Shown: piece after piece, positions 667-28,316 of the stretch
Position numbering within the stretch: position 1 is the first letter of the stretch
How the letters are laid out: each line of letters opens with the position of its first letter
Assembly (NCBI GenBank): GCA_014729445.1
Contig: WJJX01000105.1
Span: 1 to 28,316 of the forward strand
Length of the DNA stretch: 28,316 nt
DNA from: Candidatus Moraniibacteriota bacterium
GTDB lineage: Bacteria > Patescibacteriota > Minisyncoccia > CAIUEV01 > JAHKAQ01
Reading direction: 5' to 3'
The notes under the pieces: generated by a model
Database searches by the model: none
The model's input: only the letters and a program-made list of their open reading frames with translations
What the model was told of the DNA's origin: nothing
Program-made: the position numbers and the translations under genes

Positions 667-1820
667 TTATAAAACAAAATCGAAATAATTTTCTCTATTA
701 ATAATTTTAAAACTTGCTTTTGGATAAGCAATAGACCAATCTTTAGGAGCTTTATAAATTTTATTACCCCATTTAATCTCAAATCCACTCAAATTCCCAT
801 CTTTTTCTTCTATTAAATCTATCTCTTTTTTTTGATAGGTTCGCCAAAAATAATAATTAGCAAAAAATCTTTTGTATTCGTTTAATTTAAATCTTTCCAT
901 TACTAAGAAATTTTCCCATAAAGCACCTTGGTCATTCCTGTTTTCTAAAAGATTAAATTGAGAAATTACTGCGTTTCTAATACCATTATCCCAAAAATAA
1001 TATTTAGCTTTTTGATTAATTTCTTTTCTTAAATTTCGACTAAAGCCGCCGATTCTTTTTATTACAAAGCCTTTTTCAAGAAAATCTAAATATCTATCAA
1101 CGGTTTTTACATCAATTCCCAAAGTCCTCGATAGTTCATTTAAAGAAACCTCACTGCCAACTTGAAAAGAAATCAATTTTAATAGATCTAAAAGCTTATT
1201 GGAATTTTTTATTTTATCCAGCATTAAGATGTCTTTTAGCAAATAAGAATCAGCGAGTTCTTCTAATATCTCTCTTTTTTCTATTTGATTAGATGTCTTG
1301 ACAACTTCTGGATAAGTTCCAAAAATAAGACAATTTTCCAAATCTTCTTTAAGTTCAAATTTATTATAAATGTTACTTAACTCTAATTGGGAAAAGGGGA
1401 ATAAAGTAAATGTTTTTTTTCGCCCAGTTAATGGTTCTCCGATTTGTTGAGATAATTCAAACGAAGAGGAGCCGGTAGTAATTATTTTAAGATCTGGATT
1501 TTGATCGATTAAAATTTTTAATCCTTGTCCAATGTTATTTATTTGTTGGGCTTCATCAATAACAATCAATTGATATCTTTTAGCATAATCTAAAAGTTCG
1601 CCAAATCATTAGAATTAAAAAGTCTCTGGATTTTTAAATTTTCCCCTGAATCTAAACGATATTTCAGTTTAGTTTCGTTCAAAAAATTATTTATAAGGGT
1701 AGTCTTCCCAACCCTTCTTGGCCCATAAATAACTAAAACTCTTTTATTTAAAGCATTAATTAAACTTTTCAAATTATAAAAGCGAGGTAAGAAGTTTAAA
1801 TTTTGAGTATTATTATCCAT
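667..1820 (-). pseudogene. AAA+ ATPase of the DUF4143 type, split by a frameshift
   Basis: ORF 1590..1820 carries a Walker A motif (GPRRVGKTT). ORF 667..1569 carries Walker B (VIDEAQ) and the typical C-terminal DUF4143-like region. The two pieces are in different frames. The downstream frame stays open across the upstream stop (reads ...ELLDYAKRYQLIVIDEAQ), so one indel near 1570-1600 joins them. Confidence 0.6.
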
Positions 1821-9641: not shown

Positions 9642-9690
9642 TCCTTAAAAAAACATAAAAATTTAAAGCTCAAAAAGCAGCCTTAAAAAG

Positions 9691-9725
9691 AACCCCCAAA
9701 CCCCCGCAGCGGGGGTTTGGGGGTT
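9691..9725 (+). terminator. perfect 15-bp-arm GC-rich hairpin AACCCCCAAACCCCC-GCAGC-GGGGGTTTGGGGGTT
   Basis: Read directly from the sequence, 50 nt downstream of the KAP NTPase stop. There is no clear U-tract. It is a member of the G5T3G5 motif family described in the findings. Confidence 0.45.
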
Positions 9726-9831
9726 CAGGCCAAAGCTAAACCTGAATTTAAAAAATTTGCCAGATAGTCACATATTTAACCTTTTTTTTGTAATATGCTT
9801 TAATAAACTAAAATTAGCCTTAAAAAAACCA

Positions 9832-17517: not shown

Positions 17518-17530
17518 TCCCTCAGGGTGA

Positions 17531-17701
17531 GGTTTGATAGTTAAGCTTGGGTTTTGGCCTTGGCCCAAAACCCATCCCGGCCTTCCCTTAACAAGGAAGG
17601 AGCTCATAAACGCTTGATATAAACTAAAATTCAACGCCCCCTCCCTGTGAAGGGAGGGCTGGGGTGGGTTTCTTTCAAAACCAAAACTTAGCTATCAAAC
17701 C
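17531..17701 (+). other. candidate structured RNA element or complex terminator (nested hairpins)
   Basis: A ~25-bp imperfect outer inverted repeat (GGTTTGATAGTTAAGCTTGGGTTTT ... AAAACCAAAACTTAGCTATCAAACC) encloses three GC-rich hairpins. These are GGGTTTTGGCC/GGCCCAAAACCC, CCTTCC/GGAAGG and CCCTCCC/GGGAGGG. Confidence 0.3.
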
Positions 17702-17766
17702 TAAGTTATCACCTACGACAAGGCCCCTTAAATTTGACAAAAAAAATAAAATATGTTATTAATAAA

Positions 17767-17797
17767 AGCTTCATCGAGAAGCTATATTAAGTTTTTT
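17767..17797 (+). terminator. weak intrinsic-terminator-like hairpin AGCTTC-ATCGA-GAAGCT followed 8 nt later by T6
   Basis: Read directly from the sequence. It lies between asnB and the Wzz-like gene. Confidence 0.25.
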
Positions 17798-22174: not shown

Positions 22175-22816
22175 TTAGTTGGTTTTTTTCACAACCTTTT
22201 CCAAAAAGCCCTCCACTTCGCTAAGTTCGACTTGGAATCCATCAGAAAACTCAATCTCCTCCTCCTCAATATCATCAAAATAAACCAAACTCTTCAAAAC
22301 TAATGCTTCGTCTAAATTTGGAAATTTTTCCCTTAACTTGATCAATAGTTCCTCTAACTTATATTTCTTCAAAATGAAATATAAATCAATATAGTCCTTA
22401 CTTGTCGCTCTACTAGTTATCGCGTTTAATTTCATCAAAGCAATATCTAAAACACTCGCCAATTTCAAATTTTCATCACTTACAAAATCTTCAATTAAAT
22501 CAACCTTTAAAGTAAAAAAGCTCAACTTGACATTCTCCCCAATAATAACAGTAAGCGTATTCTCTTCTTCCTGAATTTTATTAATCTCAAAATTTTTAAA
22601 AACATCTTTTATCATTTGGAATAACTTTTGTGTATCAATATCTTTTTTCGAAAAAAAATCAAAATCAACACTATCTCGATGTCCTATTTGAAGAGCAAGC
22701 GCAGTTCCTCCTCCAAGATAAAAATCCTTTTTAAAATTTTTTAAATATTTAACAACCTCTAACCGTTCTTTGTCGAGTATTTTGTAATATAGCATCTTTA
22801 TTAAAATCAAGAACAA
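22175..22816 (-). CDS. AbiEii/AbiGii-family nucleotidyltransferase (type IV toxin-like)
   Basis: YLGGGTALALQIGHRDSVDFDFF matches the GG(T/S)AL...R.S.D.D nucleotidyltransferase motif of AbiEii/DUF1814-like toxins. The true start may be the internal Met at about 22795. Confidence 0.65.
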   Translation of the reverse strand: MFLILIKMLYYKILDKERLEVVKYLKNFKKDFYLGGGTALALQIGHRDSVDFDFFSKKDIDTQKLFQMIKDVFKNFEINKIQEEENTLTVIIGENVKLSFFTLKVDLIEDFVSDENLKLASVLDIALMKLNAITSRATSKDYIDLYFILKKYKLEELLIKLREKFPNLDEALVLKSLVYFDDIEEEEIEFSDGFQVELSEVEGFLEKVVKKTN

Positions 22817-23036
22817 TTGACCAATAATTAAGTGACTTTTTATTCCATTCCCCTGAATAAGATCTATTAATCACTTCTAAAATCTCGCTTCTTGAATAAT
22901 TATCAAACAGCCAATTTATCGCCTGCTTACTCCCTAAATTCAAGATATTTAAAATTATCACTTTCTTATCCTTTTCTAAATCTATCTTAGAAAAATCGTA
23001 AGACCACAAAAAAGGCTTAATGAAATTTGGAAGCAT
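22749..23036 (-). CDS. small partner protein of the nucleotidyltransferase (putative antitoxin)
   Basis: 95-aa ORF directly upstream of, and overlapping, the nucleotidyltransferase gene on the same strand. The conserved-looking N-terminus LWSYDFSKIDLEKDKKVIILNILNLG recalls small partners seen with AbiEii-like genes. This is inference only. Confidence 0.4.
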   Translation of the reverse strand: MLPNFIKPFLWSYDFSKIDLEKDKKVIILNILNLGSKQAINWLFDNYSRSEILEVINRSYSGEWNKKSLNYWSIVLDFNKDAILQNTRQRTVRGC

Positions 23037-23237
23037 AATATTTATTAATTCTCACACTGCTATTATAGCATTTTAAATAATTTTCACCATAAGCCAGACC
23101 GAATCGTCACCAGCCGCTAAGCCGACTACTAAGTAAACAGTCACCTGAAAACTTGACCAAACCCTCCAAAAATGGTATTTTTTATAGCTTTCAAAAGATT
23201 TTTTTGAAAGTCTAAAAATTGATCTAATTTCTTAGTC

Positions 23238-23280
23238 AGCTGTCCGCGGATTATAATAACCCAAGCGTTTAAAAACGCGC
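23238..23280 (+). repeat. 42-nt repeat CAGCTGTCCGCGGATTATAATAACCCAAGCGTTTAAAAACGCGC (copy 1)
   Basis: It contains a TATAAT core flanked by CCGCGG, followed by the palindrome GCGTTTAAAAACGC. It is about 80% identical to 27319-27360. It lies in the intergenic region upstream (minus-strand sense) of the nucleotidyltransferase pair. Confidence 0.5.
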
Positions 23281-23374
23281 CGTCGGCACCATAGCCGACA
23301 AAATCGCCGCTCTTTGCAACCCTTTTCCCAACTCCAAATCAAAACCCTTCCACCCCATTCAAAAAAAATTTATT

Positions 23375-23650
23375 TCACCTTCCATAATTCAACCTCTCTC
23401 TTATCATCCCATCACTCCTATGAACAAATAATTCCGTCTTTTTGTCTCTGGCCAGCTTCTTCCCAAAGTCAATTGCTTCTTTTTGAGTATCAAAAACTCT
23501 GAATGATTTTTTAGAATCTAATCGTTTAATTACCCAATTACTGTTATCATAAACAATATGCCACGCCAAAAGACCCTTTCTTACAGCTTTTTCATAGGCT
23601 TTAATCTGAGGATTATTTAAATTTCTACGTTTTAAAGTTATTTCTTTCAT
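23375..23650 (-). CDS. DUF2188-family small protein
   Basis: WHIVYDNSNWVIKR...FDTQKEAIDFGKKLARDKKTELFVHRSDGMIRERLNYG matches the DUF2188 pattern (W.V...........F.TK.EAI..A...A......L.IH..DG.I.E...YG). Confidence 0.6.
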   Translation of the reverse strand: MKEITLKRRNLNNPQIKAYEKAVRKGLLAWHIVYDNSNWVIKRLDSKKSFRVFDTQKEAIDFGKKLARDKKTELFVHRSDGMIRERLNYGR

Positions 23651-24248
23651 TTTTATAATTTATAAATTTGACTAAATTATTTTCTTTAATTTGAATAGTT
23701 TCTAAATATTTAATTTTCTCCTTTCTTGAATCAAAATATAATTTTTTAAAAATCATTTTATCCTTTTTATCATAAATACTCTTATAAACCATCAATTTAA
23801 CTTTCGGATAATTCTTAGCAATCCATAACAACACTTCTCTTGATCCCGAATGCGTTTTATAAAAATGTATATCGCTGAATTTTCTATCACGATGTAAAAA
23901 CGCGATGAATGCCCTCTTTAAATCATCCGGAATAACACTATAAACAATAGGAGTTTTATTCTTTTTTAAAATCTTTCTTATTTTAATCTTTGCCCCCAAA
24001 ACAGTTGATAAAGTTCCATCAAAAACTACTCCTTTATAATCAAACAAATACTCTGACAAAAACTCAGTTTTTCCAGAAGCGGTTCCGCCATTCATCAAAA
24101 TAATCCGCCAAAATCTATCATCTTTCAAAACTCCATCAAATTCTTTATCGGCTAACTTTGCTGATTTTTTATGATAATTCTCAACTTTTTTAGGATCATA
24201 ACCTTTAAAACTTTTCTTGATCTCATCAGCAGAGATAATTTTTGTCAT
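23625..24248 (-). CDS. P-loop kinase-like protein, zeta-toxin/AAA_33-like (tentative)
   Basis: Walker A-like ILMNGGTASGKTEF, of a size typical for zeta-toxin/UNAG-kinase-like P-loop proteins. It overlaps the DUF2188 gene at its 3' end, suggesting co-operonic organisation. Confidence 0.5.
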   Translation of the reverse strand: MTKIISADEIKKSFKGYDPKKVENYHKKSAKLADKEFDGVLKDDRFWRIILMNGGTASGKTEFLSEYLFDYKGVVFDGTLSTVLGAKIKIRKILKKNKTPIVYSVIPDDLKRAFIAFLHRDRKFSDIHFYKTHSGSREVLLWIAKNYPKVKLMVYKSIYDKKDKMIFKKLYFDSRKEKIKYLETIQIKENNLVKFINYKNERNNFKT

Positions 24249-24426
24249 AATTTTACTAATTCCTAAATCCTTCCTACTAACATCCTAAATAAATTTAATT
24301 TATAATTCAAGACTCCATCAAACAAACAAAAAATGGTCACTGTCAGTTTTATTGTCGTAATCCGCTAAACCGAACACCAGCCGCCGACCAGCATGTCGGT
24401 CCAATCTTACATAAAAACCAACAGTC

Positions 24427-24469
24427 ATAACCCCGAGACTTCAGTCCGGGGTTATGGCGGCTGAAAGGC
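24427..24469 (+). repeat. ~43-nt hairpin repeat, copy A (CATAACCCCG-N11-CGGGGTTATGGCGGCTGAAAGG)
   Basis: 9-bp perfect stem ATAACCCCG/CGGGGTTAT. It shares about 80% identity with copies at 24659 and 25620. Confidence 0.5.
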
Positions 24470-24658
24470 CTACCCCTCCCAAAAAGTCTATCCCCACCGA
24501 CAACTCCATTGACTTTTTATCTAAAATATGGTACAGTTTCTCGTTATCTATGAAAATAATCTAACATTTTCGTAGATAAAGAACCTTCTATCGGGATAAT
24601 AACAAATTACCTCTAAAAATAAGGCTTTTTCGTTTAAGCCTGACTGAAATGGATTTTA

Positions 24659-24701
24659 CATAACCCCGAAACTTTAGTCCGGAGTTATGACAGCTGGAAA
24701 A
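24659..24701 (+). repeat. ~43-nt hairpin repeat, copy B
   Basis: CATAACCCCGAAACTTTAGTCCGGAGTTATGACAGCTGGAAAA. It has the same architecture as copy A, with one C/A mismatch in the stem. Confidence 0.5.
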
Positions 24702-24995
24702 CCCCAGCCCTCCTCGCCACGCTTGGCTGGCGTAGCGGGCCTTCACAGGGAGGGGGCAAACCTCCCCGTCCCTCCGCTCCGGAGGGAACCTACATTACAG
24801 TACCTCCAAACTCTATTCAAGGGTTCCTCCCGGATCGGGAGGACAGGAGGGTTCCCCAACCCAAACCGGGGGTTTGGGGGTTCAAAGGTCAAATCCATAA
24901 AATTTATTTCAGTCAGGCTTCGAGAAGCTTAAAAAATAACTGGGGATGCTGCCGCCTGACGTTGCAGTGTTCCCTAAAAATTACTGGAGGTAAAA

Positions 24996-25484
24996 ATGAA
25001 TAAAAACTTGTTGTTTGTATTAATCTTTATGGTAATAATGGTGTTGGGAGCATGTTCGTCCCAAGATCAGAACACGGCAGATGGTGATGTCAACATCACC
25101 ATCTATGATTACACAGACGGGCATCTTGTGTATGAAGGAAACCCGGAGAGTGCCAAATTGTATTTCGACTACACATGTGAATACGAAGGATTTATAAGGC
25201 AATTCTGGTGGGTTTCCGAGAGACTCTCAGGGAAGTACGTATGGGAAGTTATATCCTCCCCCATTGACGAATACTGGAATGGTTTCTGGCTTATCAAAGG
25301 ATTTCTGGTGGAAGAAGGGGAGACCATAAGCAGAAACATCTGCATCTATGTGGTGGAAGATACCCCAGAAGAGATTGCCGCCGCTATAAAAAATTATTAT
25401 CAGACGAGTGCAACCTTTTCAATTTATTATCCCCAAGATGAATCAGGGGATATTGTTACGGAGTTCCTCTTAATCGAGGAGTAA
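24996..25484 (+). CDS. putative lipoprotein of probably foreign origin
   Basis: Signal peptide with a lipobox (MNKNLLFVLIFMVIMVLGAC-SSQ). A strong GGAGG Shine-Dalgarno sits 7 nt upstream, which is unusual in this window. The gene is visibly GC-richer and uses different codons than its neighbours. No homolog was recognised. Confidence 0.6.
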   Translation: MNKNLLFVLIFMVIMVLGACSSQDQNTADGDVNITIYDYTDGHLVYEGNPESAKLYFDYTCEYEGFIRQFWWVSERLSGKYVWEVISSPIDEYWNGFWLIKGFLVEEGETISRNICIYVVEDTPEEIAAAIKNYYQTSATFSIYYPQDESGDIVTEFLLIEE

Positions 25485-25619
25485 CAAGTAACAGTTCCTT
25501 TGAACAAAGAAAACAGCCCAAGGTGGGTTTGGACATAAAGGAGAAATCCTTGATGTCCTATGAGATTCAATTCTCACTCACCTTCGGGCTTTTTTCAATT
25601 CAAAACAAAACCAAAAATC

Positions 25620-25658
25620 CCAACCCCGAAACATTAGGCCGGGGTTATGATGGCTTGG
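25620..25658 (+). repeat. ~43-nt hairpin repeat, copy C
   Basis: CCAACCCCGAAACATTAGGCCGGGGTTATGATGGCTTGG. It lies between the lipoprotein gene and the 3' end of the AbiEii gene. Confidence 0.45.
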
Positions 25659-25701
25659 TAAATAAGCTTATGAACTTACAGCTTAATTTTAGACAGCTGA
25701 A

Positions 25702-26379
25702 CTATTCGCTTCTGATTTTTAGCTCAAACAACAATTTATTTATCAAATTTTTTTTAGTATCAACCTTTTGCTTTTCATCCAAAACCTCTCCTAATCCGTC
25801 AAGAATCAAGGCGGGGTTAATCTTTTTTTCAATAAAATCGATTAGTTCCTTAAAATATTCCTTCAAATTTTTGCCTGTTCTTTGTTTAATAATCTCTTCG
25901 CTAATGTTAAAGCCTTGTTCAAACATAAAAAGAGCGTCAAAAAGGTCTCTGTTTTGGGGTTTTCTTCTGTCGGTAATGGCGCAAAGTTTATGGGCGAACA
26001 TACAATCTTTAGTCATTGTCTTAACCGTAAAACCGTAAAAATTTTTTGTTTCGTATTTATCAAGATAGCGTCTTTTACTGACTTCAACCTTGACTTTTTG
26101 CCTGCCTTTTTCAAAACTCCCAAGCCAAAACCAGGTGTTTCTTTTGGATATATTTTCCTCCAAAATCAAGTATTGTTTTAAGATTTTAGTTAATTCATAA
26201 CTTTTCAATTCATTGTTTAAAAGGTTAAAATCAAGATCCGTTGAAAAACGGTTGAGTTTATGAAAGAGATAAAGGCAGGTTCCGTCCTTAAAAGCCAGTT
26301 TGTTTTGGAGGCGTTTATTTGAATAAATATCGGCCAGAATTTTTTTTAAAATTATTTCGTGGCGTGTTCTATCAAGCAT
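25702..26379 (-). CDS. AbiEii-family nucleotidyltransferase toxin (type IV TA)
   Basis: FKDGTCLYLFHKLNRFSTDLDF is the hallmark AbiEii/DUF1814 motif. It overlaps the upstream AbiEi-like gene by 8 nt. Confidence 0.8.
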   Translation of the reverse strand: MLDRTRHEIILKKILADIYSNKRLQNKLAFKDGTCLYLFHKLNRFSTDLDFNLLNNELKSYELTKILKQYLILEENISKRNTWFWLGSFEKGRQKVKVEVSKRRYLDKYETKNFYGFTVKTMTKDCMFAHKLCAITDRRKPQNRDLFDALFMFEQGFNISEEIIKQRTGKNLKEYFKELIDFIEKKINPALILDGLGEVLDEKQKVDTKKNLINKLLFELKIRSE

Positions 26380-26938
26380 AGTCTTTAATTAACTTTTTAA
26401 TTTCTTTTAAAAGATTTTGATTTTCGTAAATTCCGGCAATTTTTAAAAGTTTTTCTACATCTAAACCGGAAAGGTTGTCAAAAGCCAGCTTGGGTTTTAA
26501 ATAAAGGCTGTCGCAGATTGCCCTTTCTTTGGAAGCGATTAAATAGTTTTCCTTTTGTTCAATTCCCAGCGAATTAAAAAAAATATCAGATTTGATTTGA
26601 TGATACTTAAAAATTTTGTCTTCAACTTTTACGTTTTTGGTTTTAAGCGCCATGCTGTGAATATTCTTATAATATTGAAAAACAACACCGTGTTTATTTA
26701 ACGCAGTATAAAAAGAAATATAGGAAACGGGAACAATTTTTTGAGCTAATTCAAAGTCGTCAAAATCTTTTTCTATGTAGTAAATACCCTTTTTGATTTT
26801 TTTCAAATCTCCCTTTCTTAAATAATACTTAATTGCCTCGATTAACTTTTTTCTGTCGTTTTCCCGCCAAATAACGCCCAAGTCCTGAATGGTTAAAATT
26901 TTTTGTCGAGCTTTTAAAAGCTCGGTTATTTTTGTCAT
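26372..26938 (-). CDS. AbiEi-family antitoxin/transcriptional regulator (type IV TA)
   Basis: The N-terminal winged-HTH pattern ILTIQDLGVIWRENDRKKLIEAIKYYLRKGDLKKIKKGIYYI matches the AbiEi_4 N-domain consensus (L...G.L.RL.RG.Y). It sits upstream of, and overlapping, the AbiEii gene. Confidence 0.75.
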   Translation of the reverse strand: MTKITELLKARQKILTIQDLGVIWRENDRKKLIEAIKYYLRKGDLKKIKKGIYYIEKDFDDFELAQKIVPVSYISFYTALNKHGVVFQYYKNIHSMALKTKNVKVEDKIFKYHQIKSDIFFNSLGIEQKENYLIASKERAICDSLYLKPKLAFDNLSGLDVEKLLKIAGIYENQNLLKEIKKLIKDYA

Positions 26939-26947
26939 CGTTTTATT

Positions 26948-26998
26948 TTACGGTTAAAAAACTACCGTAATTATAAACAAGCGAAGGAATACTGTCAA
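26948..26998 (-). promoter_or_regulatory. consensus TTGACA-N17-TATAAT promoter (minus strand) with an embedded 7-bp inverted repeat
   Basis: On the minus strand the -35 box is at 26993-26998 and the -10 box at 26970-26975. The inverted repeat TTACGGT-N9-ACCGTAA (26948-26970) overlaps the -10 box and the predicted transcription start, immediately upstream of the AbiEi start codon. This fits the known AbiEi mechanism of autorepression through promoter inverted repeats. Confidence 0.5.
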
Positions 26999-27109
26999 GA
27001 GATAGCAATAGGGTAATATCTAGGAGATGGAACAAGGACAATATAAAATAGAAAAGCCGGTGTCGAAACCACCAGCTAATCTAATAAATATTAACCTTGT
27101 TCAAAACTA

Positions 27110-27138
27110 TTGACAAAACTTAAATTTTAAGATAATAA
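27110..27138 (+). promoter_or_regulatory. candidate plus-strand promoter TTGACA-N15-17-GATAAT/TAATAA
   Basis: Read directly from the sequence. It points into the ~620-bp hairpin-rich element, and no ORF lies downstream for about 800 nt. Confidence 0.3.
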
Positions 27139-27221
27139 TTAATGTTTTCTTTGTAAAAAGGGGGACTGTACCTTAATTTGAGACTGTACCCCCCAAACCC
27201 CCAAGGGGGCTTATGTAATCG

Positions 27222-27287
27222 TAAAGTTTCATTTAAACTTTATGACAAGGTTCCCCCCTTGGGGGGGGGCAGTGGGGGTAAAGCCAA
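27222..27287 (+). repeat. direct repeat unit 1 (AAAGTTTCA-TTAAACTTT-TGACAA-GC hairpin-CAGTGGGGGTA)
   Basis: It aligns with 27556-27640. The conserved core is ATAAAGTTTCA(C)T(A/T)AAACTTT(A/T)TGACAA(G/A)GTTC, followed by a G/C palindrome and then CAGTGGGGGTA. Confidence 0.5.
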
Positions 27288-27318
27288 AAAGACAAAGGGC
27301 CACCCCAAAAATAGCCAT

Positions 27319-27360
27319 CAGCTATCCGCCAATTATAATAACCAAGGCGTTCCAAACGCC
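27319..27360 (+). repeat. 42-nt repeat copy 2 (CAGCTATCCGCCAATTATAATAACCAAGGCGTTCCAAACGCC)
   Basis: Same architecture as copy 1, with TATAAT followed by the palindrome GGCGTTCCAAACGCC. A shorter relative, CCGGTGATTATAATAAG, is at 27708-27724. Confidence 0.5.
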
Positions 27361-27555
27361 AAGGTTTAAAAAATAATTAGCGGATACTCTGACTGCTATA
27401 AAAAAGAGTCTATTTAGATCTTTTAAAATTTACCCTATACTTTATACCGAATCGATAGAAACGGAATACCTTCTTTGAATATAAGAAAATTCCTTTCCGA
27501 ATCGGAATATTGTGTTTGAACCACCCTGTCCCTCCAGTATGGAGGGAACTATGTC

Positions 27556-27640
27556 ATAAAGTTTCACTAAAACTTTTTGACAAAGTTCTCCCCGCGGGGG
27601 AGACCCACCAAAGGCTGGGTAAACAGTGGGGGTAGAGAGA
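27556..27640 (+). repeat. direct repeat unit 2
   Basis: Second copy of the unit above. Its G/C hairpin is longer (TCCCCGCGGGGGAGACC). Confidence 0.5.
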
Positions 27641-27932
27641 AAAAGGGGAGAGGGGAACGAAAACCCCTAAATCCCCGATGCACGGGGACTTCCTAACTTT
27701 GGTTTCTCCCGGTGATTATAATAAGAATCTATTATCAAATTCTCTATTCTCATCATCATCTCTCCCCAACCAACACAAGCCCCCGTGCATCGGGGGTTTG
27801 GGGGTTCCAAAACTTGCCAATTCCCCCAACAAACACAACATTCCGGTTCGGAATTCCCAGGTTAGCGATTGTGCGAAGCCTGGGATTAATGGTTTTTCTT
27901 TATTTTTTGGGGCGTTGCCCCGAGGAGGAATT

Positions 27933-28316
27933 ATGAAAAAATTGATCGTTGTCGTAATTTTGGCGGCCTGGGCAACCGCCACGGCTAGTGTTGCGGATGC
28001 CGGGATTTTCTCGGATCCGCTTTTGTCCGCCGGTCCGGGGGCGGACGTTGAATTGACCTGGTGCCCTGGGGATCCGGATTTCCGGGGATATACGGCGGGC
28101 CCCGACGCCGATATCGTTGTGTACTTTGATTCGGAGTGCGGGGAAACTCCGAATCTGGATGGACTCTGGACCCTTGGTCCGGGGTCCGATGTGCGGGCGG
28201 AGGAGCGGCGCGGTATTTGTGGCTGCGACGCATCCTCGGGGAGCTCCGACGCCCCCCCCGCCAGCTGGGAGCGGGACATCGCCCCCCCCGCCCCCACCCC
28301 AGAAGTGCCCTGTACC
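27933..28316 (+). CDS. secreted protein, 3'-truncated by the window edge, very GC-rich
   Basis: ATG 27933 sits 4 nt after a perfect AGGAGG Shine-Dalgarno. The Sec signal peptide is MKKLIVVVILAAWATATASVADA. The frame is open for 128 codons to the last base of the window. It is not in the ORF track because it has no stop in the window. GC content and codon usage are radically different from the rest of the window. Confidence 0.5.
   Translation, partial: MKKLIVVVILAAWATATASVADAGIFSDPLLSAGPGADVELTWCPGDPDFRGYTAGPDADIVVYFDSECGETPNLDGLWTLGPGSDVRAEERRGICGCDASSGSSDAPPASWERDIAPPAPTPEVPCT

What the first reader, a model, noticed from the sequence alone, without database searches (positions are those of the whole stretch)
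24249..24995. ~750-nt GC-enriched non-coding island with repeated 43-nt hairpin units and dense GC stem-loops
No credible ORF is present. The 81-aa ORF at 24687-24932 spans palindromes and is spurious. The region holds two copies of the CATAACCCCG...CGGGGTTATG hairpin repeat, with a third copy at 25620. It also has further GC hairpins: TCCTCCCG-GAT-CGGGAGGA, GGGAGG..CCTCCC, CCCTCCG-CTC-CGGAGGG, and the degenerate G5T3G5 palindrome. The CCCTCC-loop-GGAGGG hairpin recurs at 27527-27555 and at 17639-17658 with different loops, a stem-conserved, loop-variable pattern typical of functional RNA hairpins. A non-coding stretch this long stands out in a compact genome.
Basis: seen in the sequence. Interest (0 to 1): 0.6.

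Follow-up and report, generated by a model that had tools for sequence, protein, structure and literature searches.

The report
Cluster of GC-rich palindromic DNA repeats
The long gene-free stretch is real. It is best read as a pile-up of small GC-rich hairpin-forming DNA repeats, REP/MITE-like "junk" elements nested into one another, sitting in the promoter and leader region of an orphan lipoprotein gene in a Candidatus Moranbacteria genome, and nothing identifies it as a recognisable functional RNA gene.

Summary
Window 24249-24995 has no annotated gene and no credible ORF. It is 44% GC, against 35% for coding sequence and 18-30% for short spacers, and it folds far better than shuffles (z = -10).

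The GC sits in two blocks. One is 24378-24463. The other is a 309-nt unit, 24622-24930, closed by a 23-nt inverted repeat (21/23) and flanked by a 7/8 A-rich direct repeat.

The blocks are built from at least four short palindromic modules (A-D). These recur in other long spacers of the same contig (9.7, 17.6, 25.6 and 27.2-27.8 kb), in both orientations, as singlets and as inverted doublets. One copy carries a clean 27-nt palindrome nested in its loop.

No Rfam family matches, and nothing matched in the phage, plasmid or viral collections. The genome and metagenome scans gave only unrelated, convergent hits. The nearest relatives, Moranbacteria with about 61% AsnB identity, have tight spacers and 5-12 times fewer such hairpins.

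Best reading: a lineage-specific mosaic of REP/REPIN- or MITE-like palindromic repeats inserted into a roughly 450-nt mRNA leader. A dedicated structured RNA is neither supported nor excluded. Only copy A3, on the minus strand, looks like a working terminator. Interest is modest.

The parts
24249..24344 (-). AT-rich (26% GC) promoter and 5' UTR zone of the minus-strand gene GF347_04185. A promoter-like TTGAAT (24310-24305), 17-nt spacer and TAGGAT (24287-24282) lies on the minus strand. It scores 8 of 12, below the scan threshold, so it is an inference.
   Evidence: Sequence read. GC content. Gene identity.
24378..24463 (.). GC block 1. An 8-bp inverted repeat, CAGCCGCC with GGCGGCTG, encloses a small hairpin (24384-24401) and copy 1 of module A.
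   Evidence: The fold shows this nesting (z = -4.4). Sequence.
24426..24456 (+). Module A copy 1: CATAACCCCG-AGACTTCAGTC-CGGGGTTATG, a perfect 10-bp stem. The full alignable unit is about 24414-24463. On the minus strand, TTGGTTTTT follows 8 nt after the stem.
   Evidence: (DNA fold -13.1 kcal/mol, z = -5.3).
24509..24537 (+). Promoter-like site: TTGACT, 17-nt spacer, TG-n-TACAGT (extended -10). It is the only credible plus-strand promoter upstream of the lipoprotein gene. It implies a transcription start near 24545 and a leader of about 450 nt. This is an inference.
   Evidence: No promoter-like site was found closer to the ATG at 24996.
24541..24582 (.). AT-rich hairpin or palindrome, TTATCTATGAAAAT-N8-ATTTTCGTAGATAA, with 17-nt arms that are 88% complementary. 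It sits at the predicted transcript start. It could be an operator or a 5' stem-loop. It is not repeated elsewhere.
   Evidence: (I2).
24622..24930 (.). A 309-nt mosaic element bounded by inverted repeats, with a 61% GC core. The inner arms, 24636-24658 and 24898-24920, match 21 of 23, and both mismatches are G-T. A looser outer extension (AGGCTTTTTCG with CGAGAAGCTT) continues the arms. The element is flanked by TAAAAATA (24614-24621) and AAAAAATA (24931-24938), which match 7 of 8.
24659..24689 (+). Module A copy 2, with one C-A mismatch in the stem. It lies immediately inside the left arm of the inverted repeat.
24701..24757 (-). Module D copy. It is identical (13 + 18 nt) to the reverse complement of 17636-17665. 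A clean 27-nt insertion, itself palindromic (CGCCA...TGGCG), interrupts it at the junction of stem and loop.
   Evidence: (alignment A3).
24759..24853 (.). Inverted doublet of module C, in a REPIN-like layout. Hairpin C1 is at 24769-24787 (plus orientation) and hairpin C2 at 24825-24843 (minus orientation). The 32-nt arms are 75% complementary and 31 nt apart.
   Evidence: (I1).
24855..24883 (.). Module B copy. The right arm, CGGGGGTTTGGGGGTTC, is identical to those at 9710 and 27791. The left arm has decayed.
   Evidence: (D2).
24941..24993 (+). End of the leader of the lipoprotein mRNA. An 11-position hairpin (24941-24975) has 7 Watson-Crick pairs, three G-U pairs that can form only in plus-strand RNA, and one mismatch. 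The Shine-Dalgarno sequence GGAGG (24986-24990) follows it. This part is not repeated elsewhere.
   Evidence: (H10).
25620..25650 (-). Module A copy 3, outside the reported span. It has 2 mismatches at the base of the stem. On the minus strand it lies 52 nt after the AbiEii stop codon and is followed by TTTTTGGTTTTGTTTT, so it is a plausible intrinsic terminator of the AbiEi/AbiEii operon.
   Evidence: AbiEii/AbiEi assignments.
9690..9726 (.). Module B in its intact form: a perfect 17-bp-stem palindrome, GAACCCCCAAACCCCCG-CAG-CGGGGGTTTGGGGGTTC.
   Evidence: (-22.8 kcal/mol, z = -7.0).
17530..17702 (.). A sister element of 173 nt that folds as a rod. Its outer arms are 27 nt long and 89% complementary. 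It contains the module D copy at 17636-17665.
   Evidence: I19; z = -7.9.
27187..27806 (.). Further copies inside the 994-nt spacer. There is a module B half at 27190-27202. A module C singlet is at 27529-27547. A two-hairpin unit occurs at 27219-27265 and again at 27554-27600. A split module B palindrome has arms at 27662-27691 and 27777-27806 (30 nt, 90% complementary, 85 nt apart).
   Evidence: (D10, I1, I11).

Best explanation
The spacer is the divergent promoter and leader region of two genes. It has been inflated from roughly 300 nt to 747 nt by small, non-coding, GC-rich palindromic DNA repeats.

What it is
- At least four short modules (A-D, each 20-50 nt) are scattered through the long spacers of this Candidatus Moranbacteria contig.
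- They occur as singlets, as inverted doublets and nested inside one another, and they are in various states of decay.
- In the finding they form two composite blocks. The larger block, 24622-24930, is closed by a 23-nt inverted repeat and looks like one inserted unit.

How it most likely works (inferred, not shown)
- These are selfish or neutral hairpin-forming repeats of the REP/REPIN/BIME or MITE kind.
- A transposase encoded elsewhere in the genome would copy them, either a hairpin-recognising Y1/RAYT-type enzyme or an IS with matching ends.
- They are tolerated only in spacers, and they land preferentially in or next to one another.

Likely consequences, all secondary
- The GC block is probably transcribed as part of a leader of about 450 nt for the orphan lipoprotein gene, starting at the promoter-like site at 24509-24537. 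There its stable structure could dampen or stabilise that mRNA.
- Module A with its TTGGTTTT tail can act as a minus-strand terminator at 25620, after the AbiE operon.

Shown versus inferred
- Shown: non-coding status, the repeats and their dispersal, the nesting, the fold stability and the absence from relatives.
- Inferred: mobility, the enzyme, transcription and any regulatory effect.
For: Dispersal and mosaicism
- Module A occurs 3 times.
- Module B occurs at 5 sites (7 arm matches against 0.45 expected), with an identical 17-mer at 3 of them.
- Module C occurs 3 times in both orientations.
- Module D occurs 2 times in opposite orientations.
- All copies lie in spacers of 115 nt or more, each time next to different genes.

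Nesting and decay
- One module D copy carries a clean 27-nt palindromic insertion.
- Module B ranges from a perfect palindrome through decayed arms to arms split by 85 nt.
- Module A stems decay without compensation.

REPIN-like and MITE-like layout
- Module C forms an inverted doublet at 24759-24853 and a singlet at 27529.
- The REPIN definition, two inverted REPs around a spacer, is taken from PMC3337134.
- The 309-nt block has inverted-repeat arms matching 21 of 23 and a flanking direct repeat matching 7 of 8.

Composition and position
- Short spacers are 18-30% GC and long spacers are 37-44% GC. The extra length is therefore the GC-rich repeat material.
- Hairpins are enriched in spacers (P about 2e-8).

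Lineage specificity
- Related Moranbacteria loci have spacers of 3-60 nt after AsnB.
- They carry 0.5-1.1 GC-rich hairpins per 10 kb, against 5.65 in this contig.

Lack of alternatives
- No Rfam family matches and there is no strand asymmetry.
- There is no protein homology.
- There is no tandem array and no Cas, Tas, reverse transcriptase or integrase gene in the window.

Precedent
- Pneumococcal BOX, RUP and SPRITE repeats cluster in spacers and insert into one another (PMC10969869, citing Croucher 2011).
Against: - No transposase or RAYT gene is present in the 28 kb, and the rest of the genome could not be retrieved. Mobility and genome-wide copy number are therefore untested.
- The 23-nt inverted repeat occurs only once as a pair in the window.
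- The flanking direct repeat is A-rich and only weakly significant. When both flanks are pure A/T, 12.6% of such pairs match this well.
- The other units bounded by inverted repeats show no flanking duplication.
- Prokaryotic MITEs are typically AT-rich (PMC10969869), whereas this core is 61% GC.
- Module C keeps perfect stems through three compensated changes. That shows selection or a correction process acting on the hairpin, and an RNA role would explain it equally well.
- No empty site or presence/absence polymorphism could be examined, because no close relative exists in the collections (best AsnB identity 62%).
Confidence: 0.6

Rival explanations
1. The block, about 24545-24995 or the 309-nt unit alone, is a dedicated structured RNA. 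It would be a long cis-regulatory leader or an sRNA controlling the orphan lipoprotein gene. It could work through its many CCUCC/GGAGG (anti-SD/SD-like) hairpins and through segments complementary to the ribosome-binding site.
For: - The predicted structure is very stable (z = -10.2 and -6.6).
- A promoter-like site at 24509-24537 would transcribe the block together with the gene.
- The hairpin at 24941-24975, just before the SD, needs three G-U pairs and so forms only in plus-strand RNA.
- TACCTCCA (24800-24807) and TTACCTC (24606-24612) are exact complements of the SD region TGGAGGTAA.
- The module C stems are kept by 3 compensated changes.
Against: - No Rfam match was found.
- The same modules sit in unrelated contexts and in both orientations.
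- The minus strand folds equally well.
- Wobble pairs show no strand bias overall.
- Module A stems decay without compensation.
- No homologous region exists in any collection, so there is no covariation evidence beyond copies within this genome.
- CCTCC is common in this C-rich block (6 copies), so matches to the SD complement are not surprising.
Confidence: 0.15
2. The hairpins are functional transcription terminators or insulators that separate the densely packed, oppositely oriented toxin-antitoxin and lipoprotein transcription units.
For: - On the minus strand A3 lies 52 nt after the AbiEii stop codon and is followed by TTTTTGGTTTTGTTTT.
- A1 on the minus strand is followed by TTGGTTTTT.
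- The conserved 5' flank AAAACCAA of A1 and A3 is this T-tract read on the other strand.
- A terminator-like site lies on the minus strand at 24641-24622.
- SPRITE elements set a precedent for repeats that look like terminators (PMC10969869).
Against: - The finding lies between divergent genes, where no terminator is needed.
- A2 and the hairpins of modules B, C and D have no adjacent T-tract on either strand.
- The perfect module B palindrome at 9690 has its T-tract on the strand opposite to both neighbouring genes.
- The lipoprotein gene already has a canonical terminator at 25510-25594 with TTTTTT.
- A need for terminators does not explain the nesting, the inverted doublets or the 309-nt unit bounded by inverted repeats.
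Confidence: 0.12
3. The region is an assembly artefact or a chimeric join. The contig comes from a metagenome bin, and palindromes and repeats can mislead assemblers.
For: - The contig ends in a 64% GC ORF with no homologues (27933-28316), an abrupt change from a 35% GC genome.
- The source is a MAG.
- The repeats are absent from all searched collections.
Against: - The modules recur at five separate spacers across 18 kb, between intact genes with normal starts, stops and ribosome-binding sites.
- The copies differ by point changes, as real diverged repeats do, and are not identical collapsed copies.
- The finding is 3 kb from the GC-rich end.
Confidence: 0.05
4. The region is the remnant of a degraded protein-coding gene or of foreign GC-rich DNA.
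For: The local GC (61%) is foreign to the genome. An 81-aa ORF is present.
Against: - The ORF has no Pfam hit.
- Its only HMMER hits are spurious translations of tandem repeats.
- ORFs of similar length lie on both strands because the DNA is palindromic.
- blastn found nothing in the phage or plasmid collections.
- The block breaks down completely into the short repeated modules.
Confidence: 0.03

Closest known systems
REP / REPIN / BIME elements (repetitive extragenic palindromes mobilised by RAYT Y1 transposases; Bertels & Rainey, PMC3116915 and PMC3337134)
   Same: - They are short (20-40 nt) imperfect GC-rich palindromes confined to spacers.
- They occur as singlets and as inverted doublets around a short spacer. 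Module C shows this at 24759-24853 (doublet) against 27529 (singlet), and module B is split at 27662-27806.
- Different units combine into mosaics.
- Stems are maintained while loops and flanks drift.
   Different: - No RAYT gene is present in the window, and the genome-wide copy number is unknown.
- No conserved GTAG-type flank was seen.
- To my knowledge the host is a Patescibacteria/CPR lineage in which such systems have not been described. My literature searches found nothing on this.
- Several unrelated module families coexist within 28 kb.
Prokaryotic MITEs (Correia/CREE, ERIC, QMITE and others; review PMC10969869)
   Same: - The 309-nt unit has no coding capacity.
- It has 23-nt terminal inverted repeats.
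- It has a possible 8-bp flanking duplication.
- It sits in an AT-rich spacer just upstream of a gene.
- Its transcript is predicted to form a very stable stem-loop.
   Different: - The core is 61% GC, whereas MITEs are typically AT-rich.
- Only one copy of these terminal repeats is present in 28 kb.
- The duplication is statistically weak.
- The interior is itself a mosaic of other repeats.
- No parent IS is known.
Pneumococcal BOX / RUP / SPRITE repeat clusters (Croucher 2011, as summarised in PMC10969869)
   Same: - Several families of small, structured repeats bunch together in spacers and insert into one another.
- One family, SPRITE, mimics a Rho-independent terminator, as module A does on the minus strand.
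   Different: There is no sequence similarity, the phylum is different, and the modules here are GC-rich in an AT-rich genome.
Mobile GC clusters of AT-rich fungal mitochondrial genomes (from general knowledge; analogy only)
   Same: - Short GC-rich palindromes are scattered in AT-rich spacers and are often nested.
- The single metagenome match to module A was such a GC hairpin, ATAACCCCGG...CCGGGGTTAT, in a very AT-rich contig (L001).
   Different: This is a different genetic system with no homology. The identity of L001 was not established.

Membership tests
REP/REPIN-RAYT system | Short imperfect palindromes restricted to extragenic DNA | tested here: met
   Modules A-D have 7-17-bp stems. 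Twelve of the 16 GC-rich perfect hairpins lie in the 12.8% of the contig that is intergenic.
REP/REPIN-RAYT system | Inverted doublets of the REP unit around a short spacer (a REPIN), alongside singlets | tested here: met
   Module C forms a doublet at 24759-24853 (32-nt arms, 75% complementary, 31-nt spacer) and a singlet at 27529. Module B has arms at 27662-27691 and 27777-27806. The definition comes from PMC3337134.
REP/REPIN-RAYT system | Tens to hundreds of copies per genome | not testable with these tools
   Only this 28-kb contig of the MAG was reachable. Within it each module has 2-5 copies.
REP/REPIN-RAYT system | A cognate RAYT (Y1, IS200/IS605-like) gene, usually flanked by REPs | tested here: not met
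   Pfam scans of the window's proteins found no transposase of any kind. One may lie elsewhere in the genome, which could not be searched.
MITE | Shorter than about 500 bp with no coding capacity | tested here: met
   The element is 309 nt long. Its ORFs are spurious.
MITE | Terminal inverted repeats of about 4-30 bp | tested here: met
   The arms 24636-24658 and 24898-24920 match 21 of 23, and there is a looser outer extension.
MITE | Target-site duplication flanking the element | tested here: inconclusive
   TAAAAATA and AAAAAATA match 7 of 8. Random pairs match this well 0.13-0.18% of the time. Pairs in which both 8-mers are pure A/T do so 12.6% of the time. The other units bounded by inverted repeats have no such duplication.
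MITE | Several copies of the same TIR-bounded element; AT-rich composition | tested here: not met
   The terminal repeat occurs only as this one pair in the window. The core is 61% GC.
Any curated RNA family (Rfam 15) | A score at or above the family's gathering threshold | tested here: not met
   The whole window gave 0 matches. Permissive scans of 24200-25050 and 26900-28316 gave only sub-threshold hits to miRNA, snoRNA and other unrelated families.
Intrinsic (Rho-independent) terminator | A GC-rich stem-loop followed immediately by a U-tract, downstream of a gene on the same strand | tested here: not met
   Inside the finding the scan lists only 24641-24622 on the minus strand, and no gene lies upstream of it. 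The feature is met only outside the finding, by A3 on the minus strand after AbiEii.
Integron attC / gene cassette | A 57-141-nt imperfect palindrome with RYYYAAC and GTTRRRY core sites, with an integrase or an array of such sites | tested here: not met
   Module A is 31-49 nt long. Its ends, TCATAAC and GTTATGG, each miss the consensus at 2 positions (read; the consensus is from general knowledge). No tyrosine recombinase is present in the window. No attC covariance model was available.
CRISPR or TIGR guide arrays | Tandem, regularly spaced repeats next to a Cas or Tas gene | tested here: not met
   No tandem array was found in 22800-28316. Module A spacings are 233 and 960 nt. No Cas or Nop-domain protein is present.
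Replication origin | A cluster of DnaA boxes | tested here: not met
   No TTATCCACA-like box with up to 1 mismatch lies inside 24249-24995.

The most novel reading that the evidence does not exclude
The unit at 24622-24930, closed by inverted repeats, together with its sister at 17530-17702, would be a previously undescribed class of modular structured RNA private to this Moranbacteria lineage. Interchangeable GC hairpins with compensated stems (3 of 8 pairs in module C) would present SD-like GGAGG and anti-SD-like CCUCC motifs to control translation or stability of the downstream mRNA. The apparent dispersal would then be duplication of a functional RNA module, not selfish DNA.
Probability: 0.08. 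Interest if true: 0.55.

Novelty: new member of a known kind. Interest (0 to 1): 0.3.

Why it matters
Candidate Phyla Radiation bacteria have small, tightly packed genomes. The relatives examined here have spacers of a few to about 280 nucleotides. A lineage whose long spacers are filled with several families of nested GC-rich palindromes would therefore be a useful case.

- It would show selfish or structural repeats invading a reduced genome.
- It could point to an unrecognised hairpin-dependent transposase in this group.

In practice, the result warns annotators that long, strongly folding, GC-rich spacers in AT-rich MAGs need not be RNA genes. It also flags palindromes that can disturb assembly. 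It does not open a new mechanism.

Tried and rejected
- **Rfam.** A scan at gathering thresholds and two permissive scans found nothing meaningful. No tRNA or tmRNA was found.
- **Retrieving the rest of the genome.** Three exact-protein look-ups found nothing on record.
- **Module A pattern.** It gave 0 hits in genome contigs and 0 hits in viral contigs. It gave 1 hit in metagenome contigs, and that hit is an unrelated AT-rich contig with a GC hairpin.
- **Module B palindrome in genome contigs.** It gave 38 hits, all in unrelated phyla (many in Hormoscilla, plus Runella, Chloroflexi and others) and none in Patescibacteria. I read this as convergent low-complexity palindromes, not homologues.
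- **Module C, module D and terminal-repeat patterns in viral contigs.** These gave 0 hits or chance hits in GC-rich phage contigs.
- **blastn of the 747 nt against the phage and plasmid collections.** No hit.
- **Degraded-gene idea.** No Pfam hit. The exhaustive HMMER search hit only junk tandem-repeat translations.
- **Suspected homology between spacers 23037-23374 and 24249-24640.** The local alignment score is at the shuffle level, so I rejected it.
- **Strand of a putative RNA from G-U versus A-C mismatches in 12 helices.** The counts were 20 against 12 (p = 0.22), which is uninformative.
- **Other readings.** A replication origin, a tandem, CRISPR or TIGR array and integron attC sites (core motifs do not fit) were all rejected.
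- **Synteny or empty-site test with relatives.** The closest AsnB homologues are only about 61% identical and sit in a different gene order. This gives only a general contrast in spacer length and hairpin density.
- **GC-rich terminal ORF.** No homologues were found.
- **Function of the flanking 207-aa protein.** It has no Pfam, NCBIfam or PDB sequence match. Calling it a "zeta-like P-loop kinase" is only my reading of its GGTASGKT motif and its DUF2188 partner.
Full report
**Source and setting**

The window is an entire 28,316-nt contig of an NCBI metagenome-assembled genome labelled Candidatus Moranbacteria bacterium (Patescibacteria/CPR).
- The gene to the left of the finding, 23625-24248 on the minus strand, is GF347_04185. 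The gene to the right, 24996-25484 on the plus strand, is GF347_04190. The tags are consecutive, so the depositor annotated nothing between them.
- The right-hand gene encodes a 162-aa protein with a lipoprotein-type signal sequence. Its only match among 5.8 billion protein clusters is itself.
- The neighbourhood is a toxin-antitoxin-rich variable region. It holds two AbiEii toxins, an AbiEi antitoxin, a DUF6922 protein and a DUF2188 protein.
- The rest of the contig carries an RND efflux pump, a KAP NTPase, a vWA/M23 protein, asparagine synthase and glycosyltransferases.
- The window contains no transposase, reverse transcriptase, integrase, Cas or Tas gene.

**Check of the observation**

The 747-nt spacer is real.
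- It is 44.3% GC, against 34.9% for coding sequence and 18-30% for the short spacers.
- The GC sits in two blocks: 24345-24500 (51%) and 24690-24895 (61%). They are separated by a 28% GC stretch.
- The CATAACCCCG-N11-CGGGGTTATG unit occurs three times in one orientation, against 0.01 expected by chance.
- GGGGGTTTGGGGG occurs 7 times, against 0.45 expected.
- The whole spacer folds with z = -10.2.
- The 81-aa ORF is spurious. It has no Pfam hit and is absent from the protein collection. Its only exhaustive-search hits are translated tandem repeats.

**Anatomy, left to right**

1. 24249-24344 is AT-rich and serves the minus-strand gene.
2. 24378-24463 is a small composite unit. It is closed by an 8-bp GC inverted repeat and contains module A copy 1.
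3. 24509-24537 is a plus-strand promoter-like site: TTGACT, a 17-nt spacer, then TG-n-TACAGT.
4. An AT-rich 17-bp-arm hairpin at 24541-24582 follows the promoter-like site.
   - Its arms, 24636-24658 and 24898-24920, match 21 of 23.
   - They close a multi-branched fold, with z = -6.6 on the plus strand and -6.9 on the minus strand.
   - The unit is flanked by TAAAAATA and AAAAAATA.
   - Inside it, in order, lie module A copy 2, a small GCTGG/CCAGC hairpin, module D, an inverted doublet of module C, and a decayed module B.
6. 24941-24993 holds a hairpin that needs three G-U pairs on the plus strand, then the GGAGG ribosome-binding site.

**The modules are dispersed repeats**

- Module B is a perfect 17-bp-stem palindrome at 9690-9726. 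The identical 17-mer recurs at 24867 and 27791. A half copy lies at 27190, and a diverged partner arm lies at 27662.
- Module C, GAACCnCCCTGTCCCTCCG-n-CGGAGGGAACC, occurs at 24757-24795 (plus), 24818-24856 (minus) and 27517-27555 (plus).
- Module D at 24701-24757 equals the reverse complement of 17636-17665 over 13 + 18 identical bases. It carries a clean 27-nt insertion, itself palindromic, at the stem-loop junction.
- The 17.6-kb copy lies inside another unit bounded by inverted repeats, 17530-17702, which folds as a rod (z = -7.9).
- The 994-nt spacer 26939-27932 is built the same way.
- Twelve of the 16 GC-rich perfect hairpins lie in the 12.8% of the contig that is intergenic (P about 2e-8).

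**RNA or DNA?**

- Module C keeps 100% pairing in three copies, and 3 of its 8 pairs changed on both sides. The hairpin is therefore maintained.
- Module A shows no compensated changes and three disruptive ones.
- Both strands fold equally well.
- Over 12 helices, wobble pairs favour neither strand (20 against 12, p = 0.22).
- No Rfam family matches.
- Compensated stems are also expected for hairpin-dependent mobile DNA. They therefore do not discriminate between the two readings.

**Comparison with other genomes**

- The module A pattern gave nothing in 185,579 species-representative genomes and nothing in IMG/VR. Its one metagenome match is an unrelated AT-rich contig with a GC hairpin.
- The module B palindrome gave 38 hits, but all in unrelated phyla and none in Patescibacteria. 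I read these as convergent.
- The nearest AsnB homologues are only about 61% identical.
- Three such Moranbacteria loci have 3-60 nt after AsnB, where this contig has 366 nt.
- Those loci carry 0.5-1.1 GC-rich hairpins per 10 kb, against 5.65 here.
- The repeats are therefore lineage-specific. Classical covariation analysis across species is not possible.

**Interpretation**

- The most economical reading is a mosaic of REP/REPIN/BIME-like or MITE-like palindromic repeats. They would have accumulated, partly by nesting, in a permissive promoter and leader region.
- The defining features of REPINs (PMC3337134) are met where they could be tested: extragenic palindromes, and inverted doublets alongside singlets. 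The RAYT gene and the genome-wide copy number could not be tested.
- The defining features of MITEs (PMC10969869) are partly met. Size, terminal repeats and stable structure fit. The flanking duplication is only weakly significant. Only one copy of the terminal repeat exists in the window. The core is GC-rich, not AT-rich.
- Pneumococcal BOX, RUP and SPRITE clusters are a close precedent for bunching and mutual insertion (PMC10969869).

**Secondary functions**

- Module A copy 3 on the minus strand lies 52 nt after the AbiEii stop codon and is followed by a T-rich tract. That fits a terminator.
- Copy 1 has a weaker tail of the same kind. Copy 2 and modules B-D have no T-tract.
- If the promoter-like site at 24509 is real, the GC block is part of a leader of about 450 nt. 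It could then affect expression of the lipoprotein gene. This is an inference only.

**Verdict**

The functional-RNA interpretation is only partly supported. The feature is a new, lineage-specific example of a known kind of element and is of modest interest.

Noticed in passing
window 26939-27932: This non-coding spacer is even longer (994 nt, 41% GC) and is made of the same kind of modules. A two-hairpin unit occurs at 27219-27265 and again at 27554-27600. There are 47-nt inverted arms at 27223-27269 and 27530-27576. A split G5T3G5 palindrome has arms at 27662-27691 and 27777-27806. No Rfam match was found.
   Followed up: partly
window 27933-28316: The contig ends in an ORF of 64% GC (65-59-69% at codon positions 1-3) with a signal-peptide-like start, MKKLIVVVILAAWATATASVA. 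It runs off the end and has no homologues. The compositional jump in a 35% GC genome is abrupt. It could be foreign DNA or a chimeric join.
   Followed up: partly
window 17530-17702: A 173-nt rod-like palindromic element (27-nt outer arms, z = -7.9) lies between asparagine synthase and the next gene. Related Moranbacteria have only 3-60 nt after AsnB, although their downstream gene is different.
   Followed up: partly
L002-L039 (genome-contig hits): The palindrome CCCCCAAACCCCC...GGGGGTTTGGGGG occurs in 38 loci from unrelated phyla. Many copies are in Hormoscilla cyanobacteria, framed by GGATCC. Others are in Runella and Cytophagia with a shared inner GGGGGCTT...AAGCCCCC layer, and in Chloroflexi and Thermodesulfobacteriota. 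They appear to be independent repeat families that converged on the same simple motif.
   Followed up: no
L001 9889-9915: The only metagenome match to module A is a GC hairpin, ATAACCCCGGCACATAGGGCCGGGGTTAT, in a very AT-rich 13.9-kb contig with few ORFs. It is reminiscent of mitochondrial GC clusters. The identity of the contig was not checked.
   Followed up: no
window 667-1820 (minus strand): An AAA_14/DUF4143 ATPase appears split into two ORFs. ORF 1590-1820 carries the N-terminal P-loop part, and ORF 667-1569 carries the rest. This could be a frameshift or a pseudogene.
   Followed up: no
window 23037-23374 and 24249-24500: The plus strand is markedly C-rich and G-poor here (GC skew about -0.4) across two spacers in the toxin-antitoxin region. 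The two spacers are not significantly similar to each other.
   Followed up: partly
window 25079-25104: A perfect 11-bp-stem palindrome, AGATGGTGATGT-CA-ACATCACCATCT, lies inside the orphan lipoprotein gene.
   Followed up: no
window 17766-17786 and 24917-24933: Similar small palindromes, AGCTTC-ATCGA-GAAGCT and GCTTC-GA-GAAGCT, lie 65-100 nt upstream of two plus-strand start codons. They could be a shared regulatory site or a chance match.
   Followed up: no
window 24606-24612, 24800-24807 and 24984-24992: Two segments of the leader, TTACCTC and TACCTCCA, are exact complements of the ribosome-binding region TGGAGGTAA of the lipoprotein gene. The minimum-free-energy fold pairs the first of them with the SD sequence.
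   Followed up: partly
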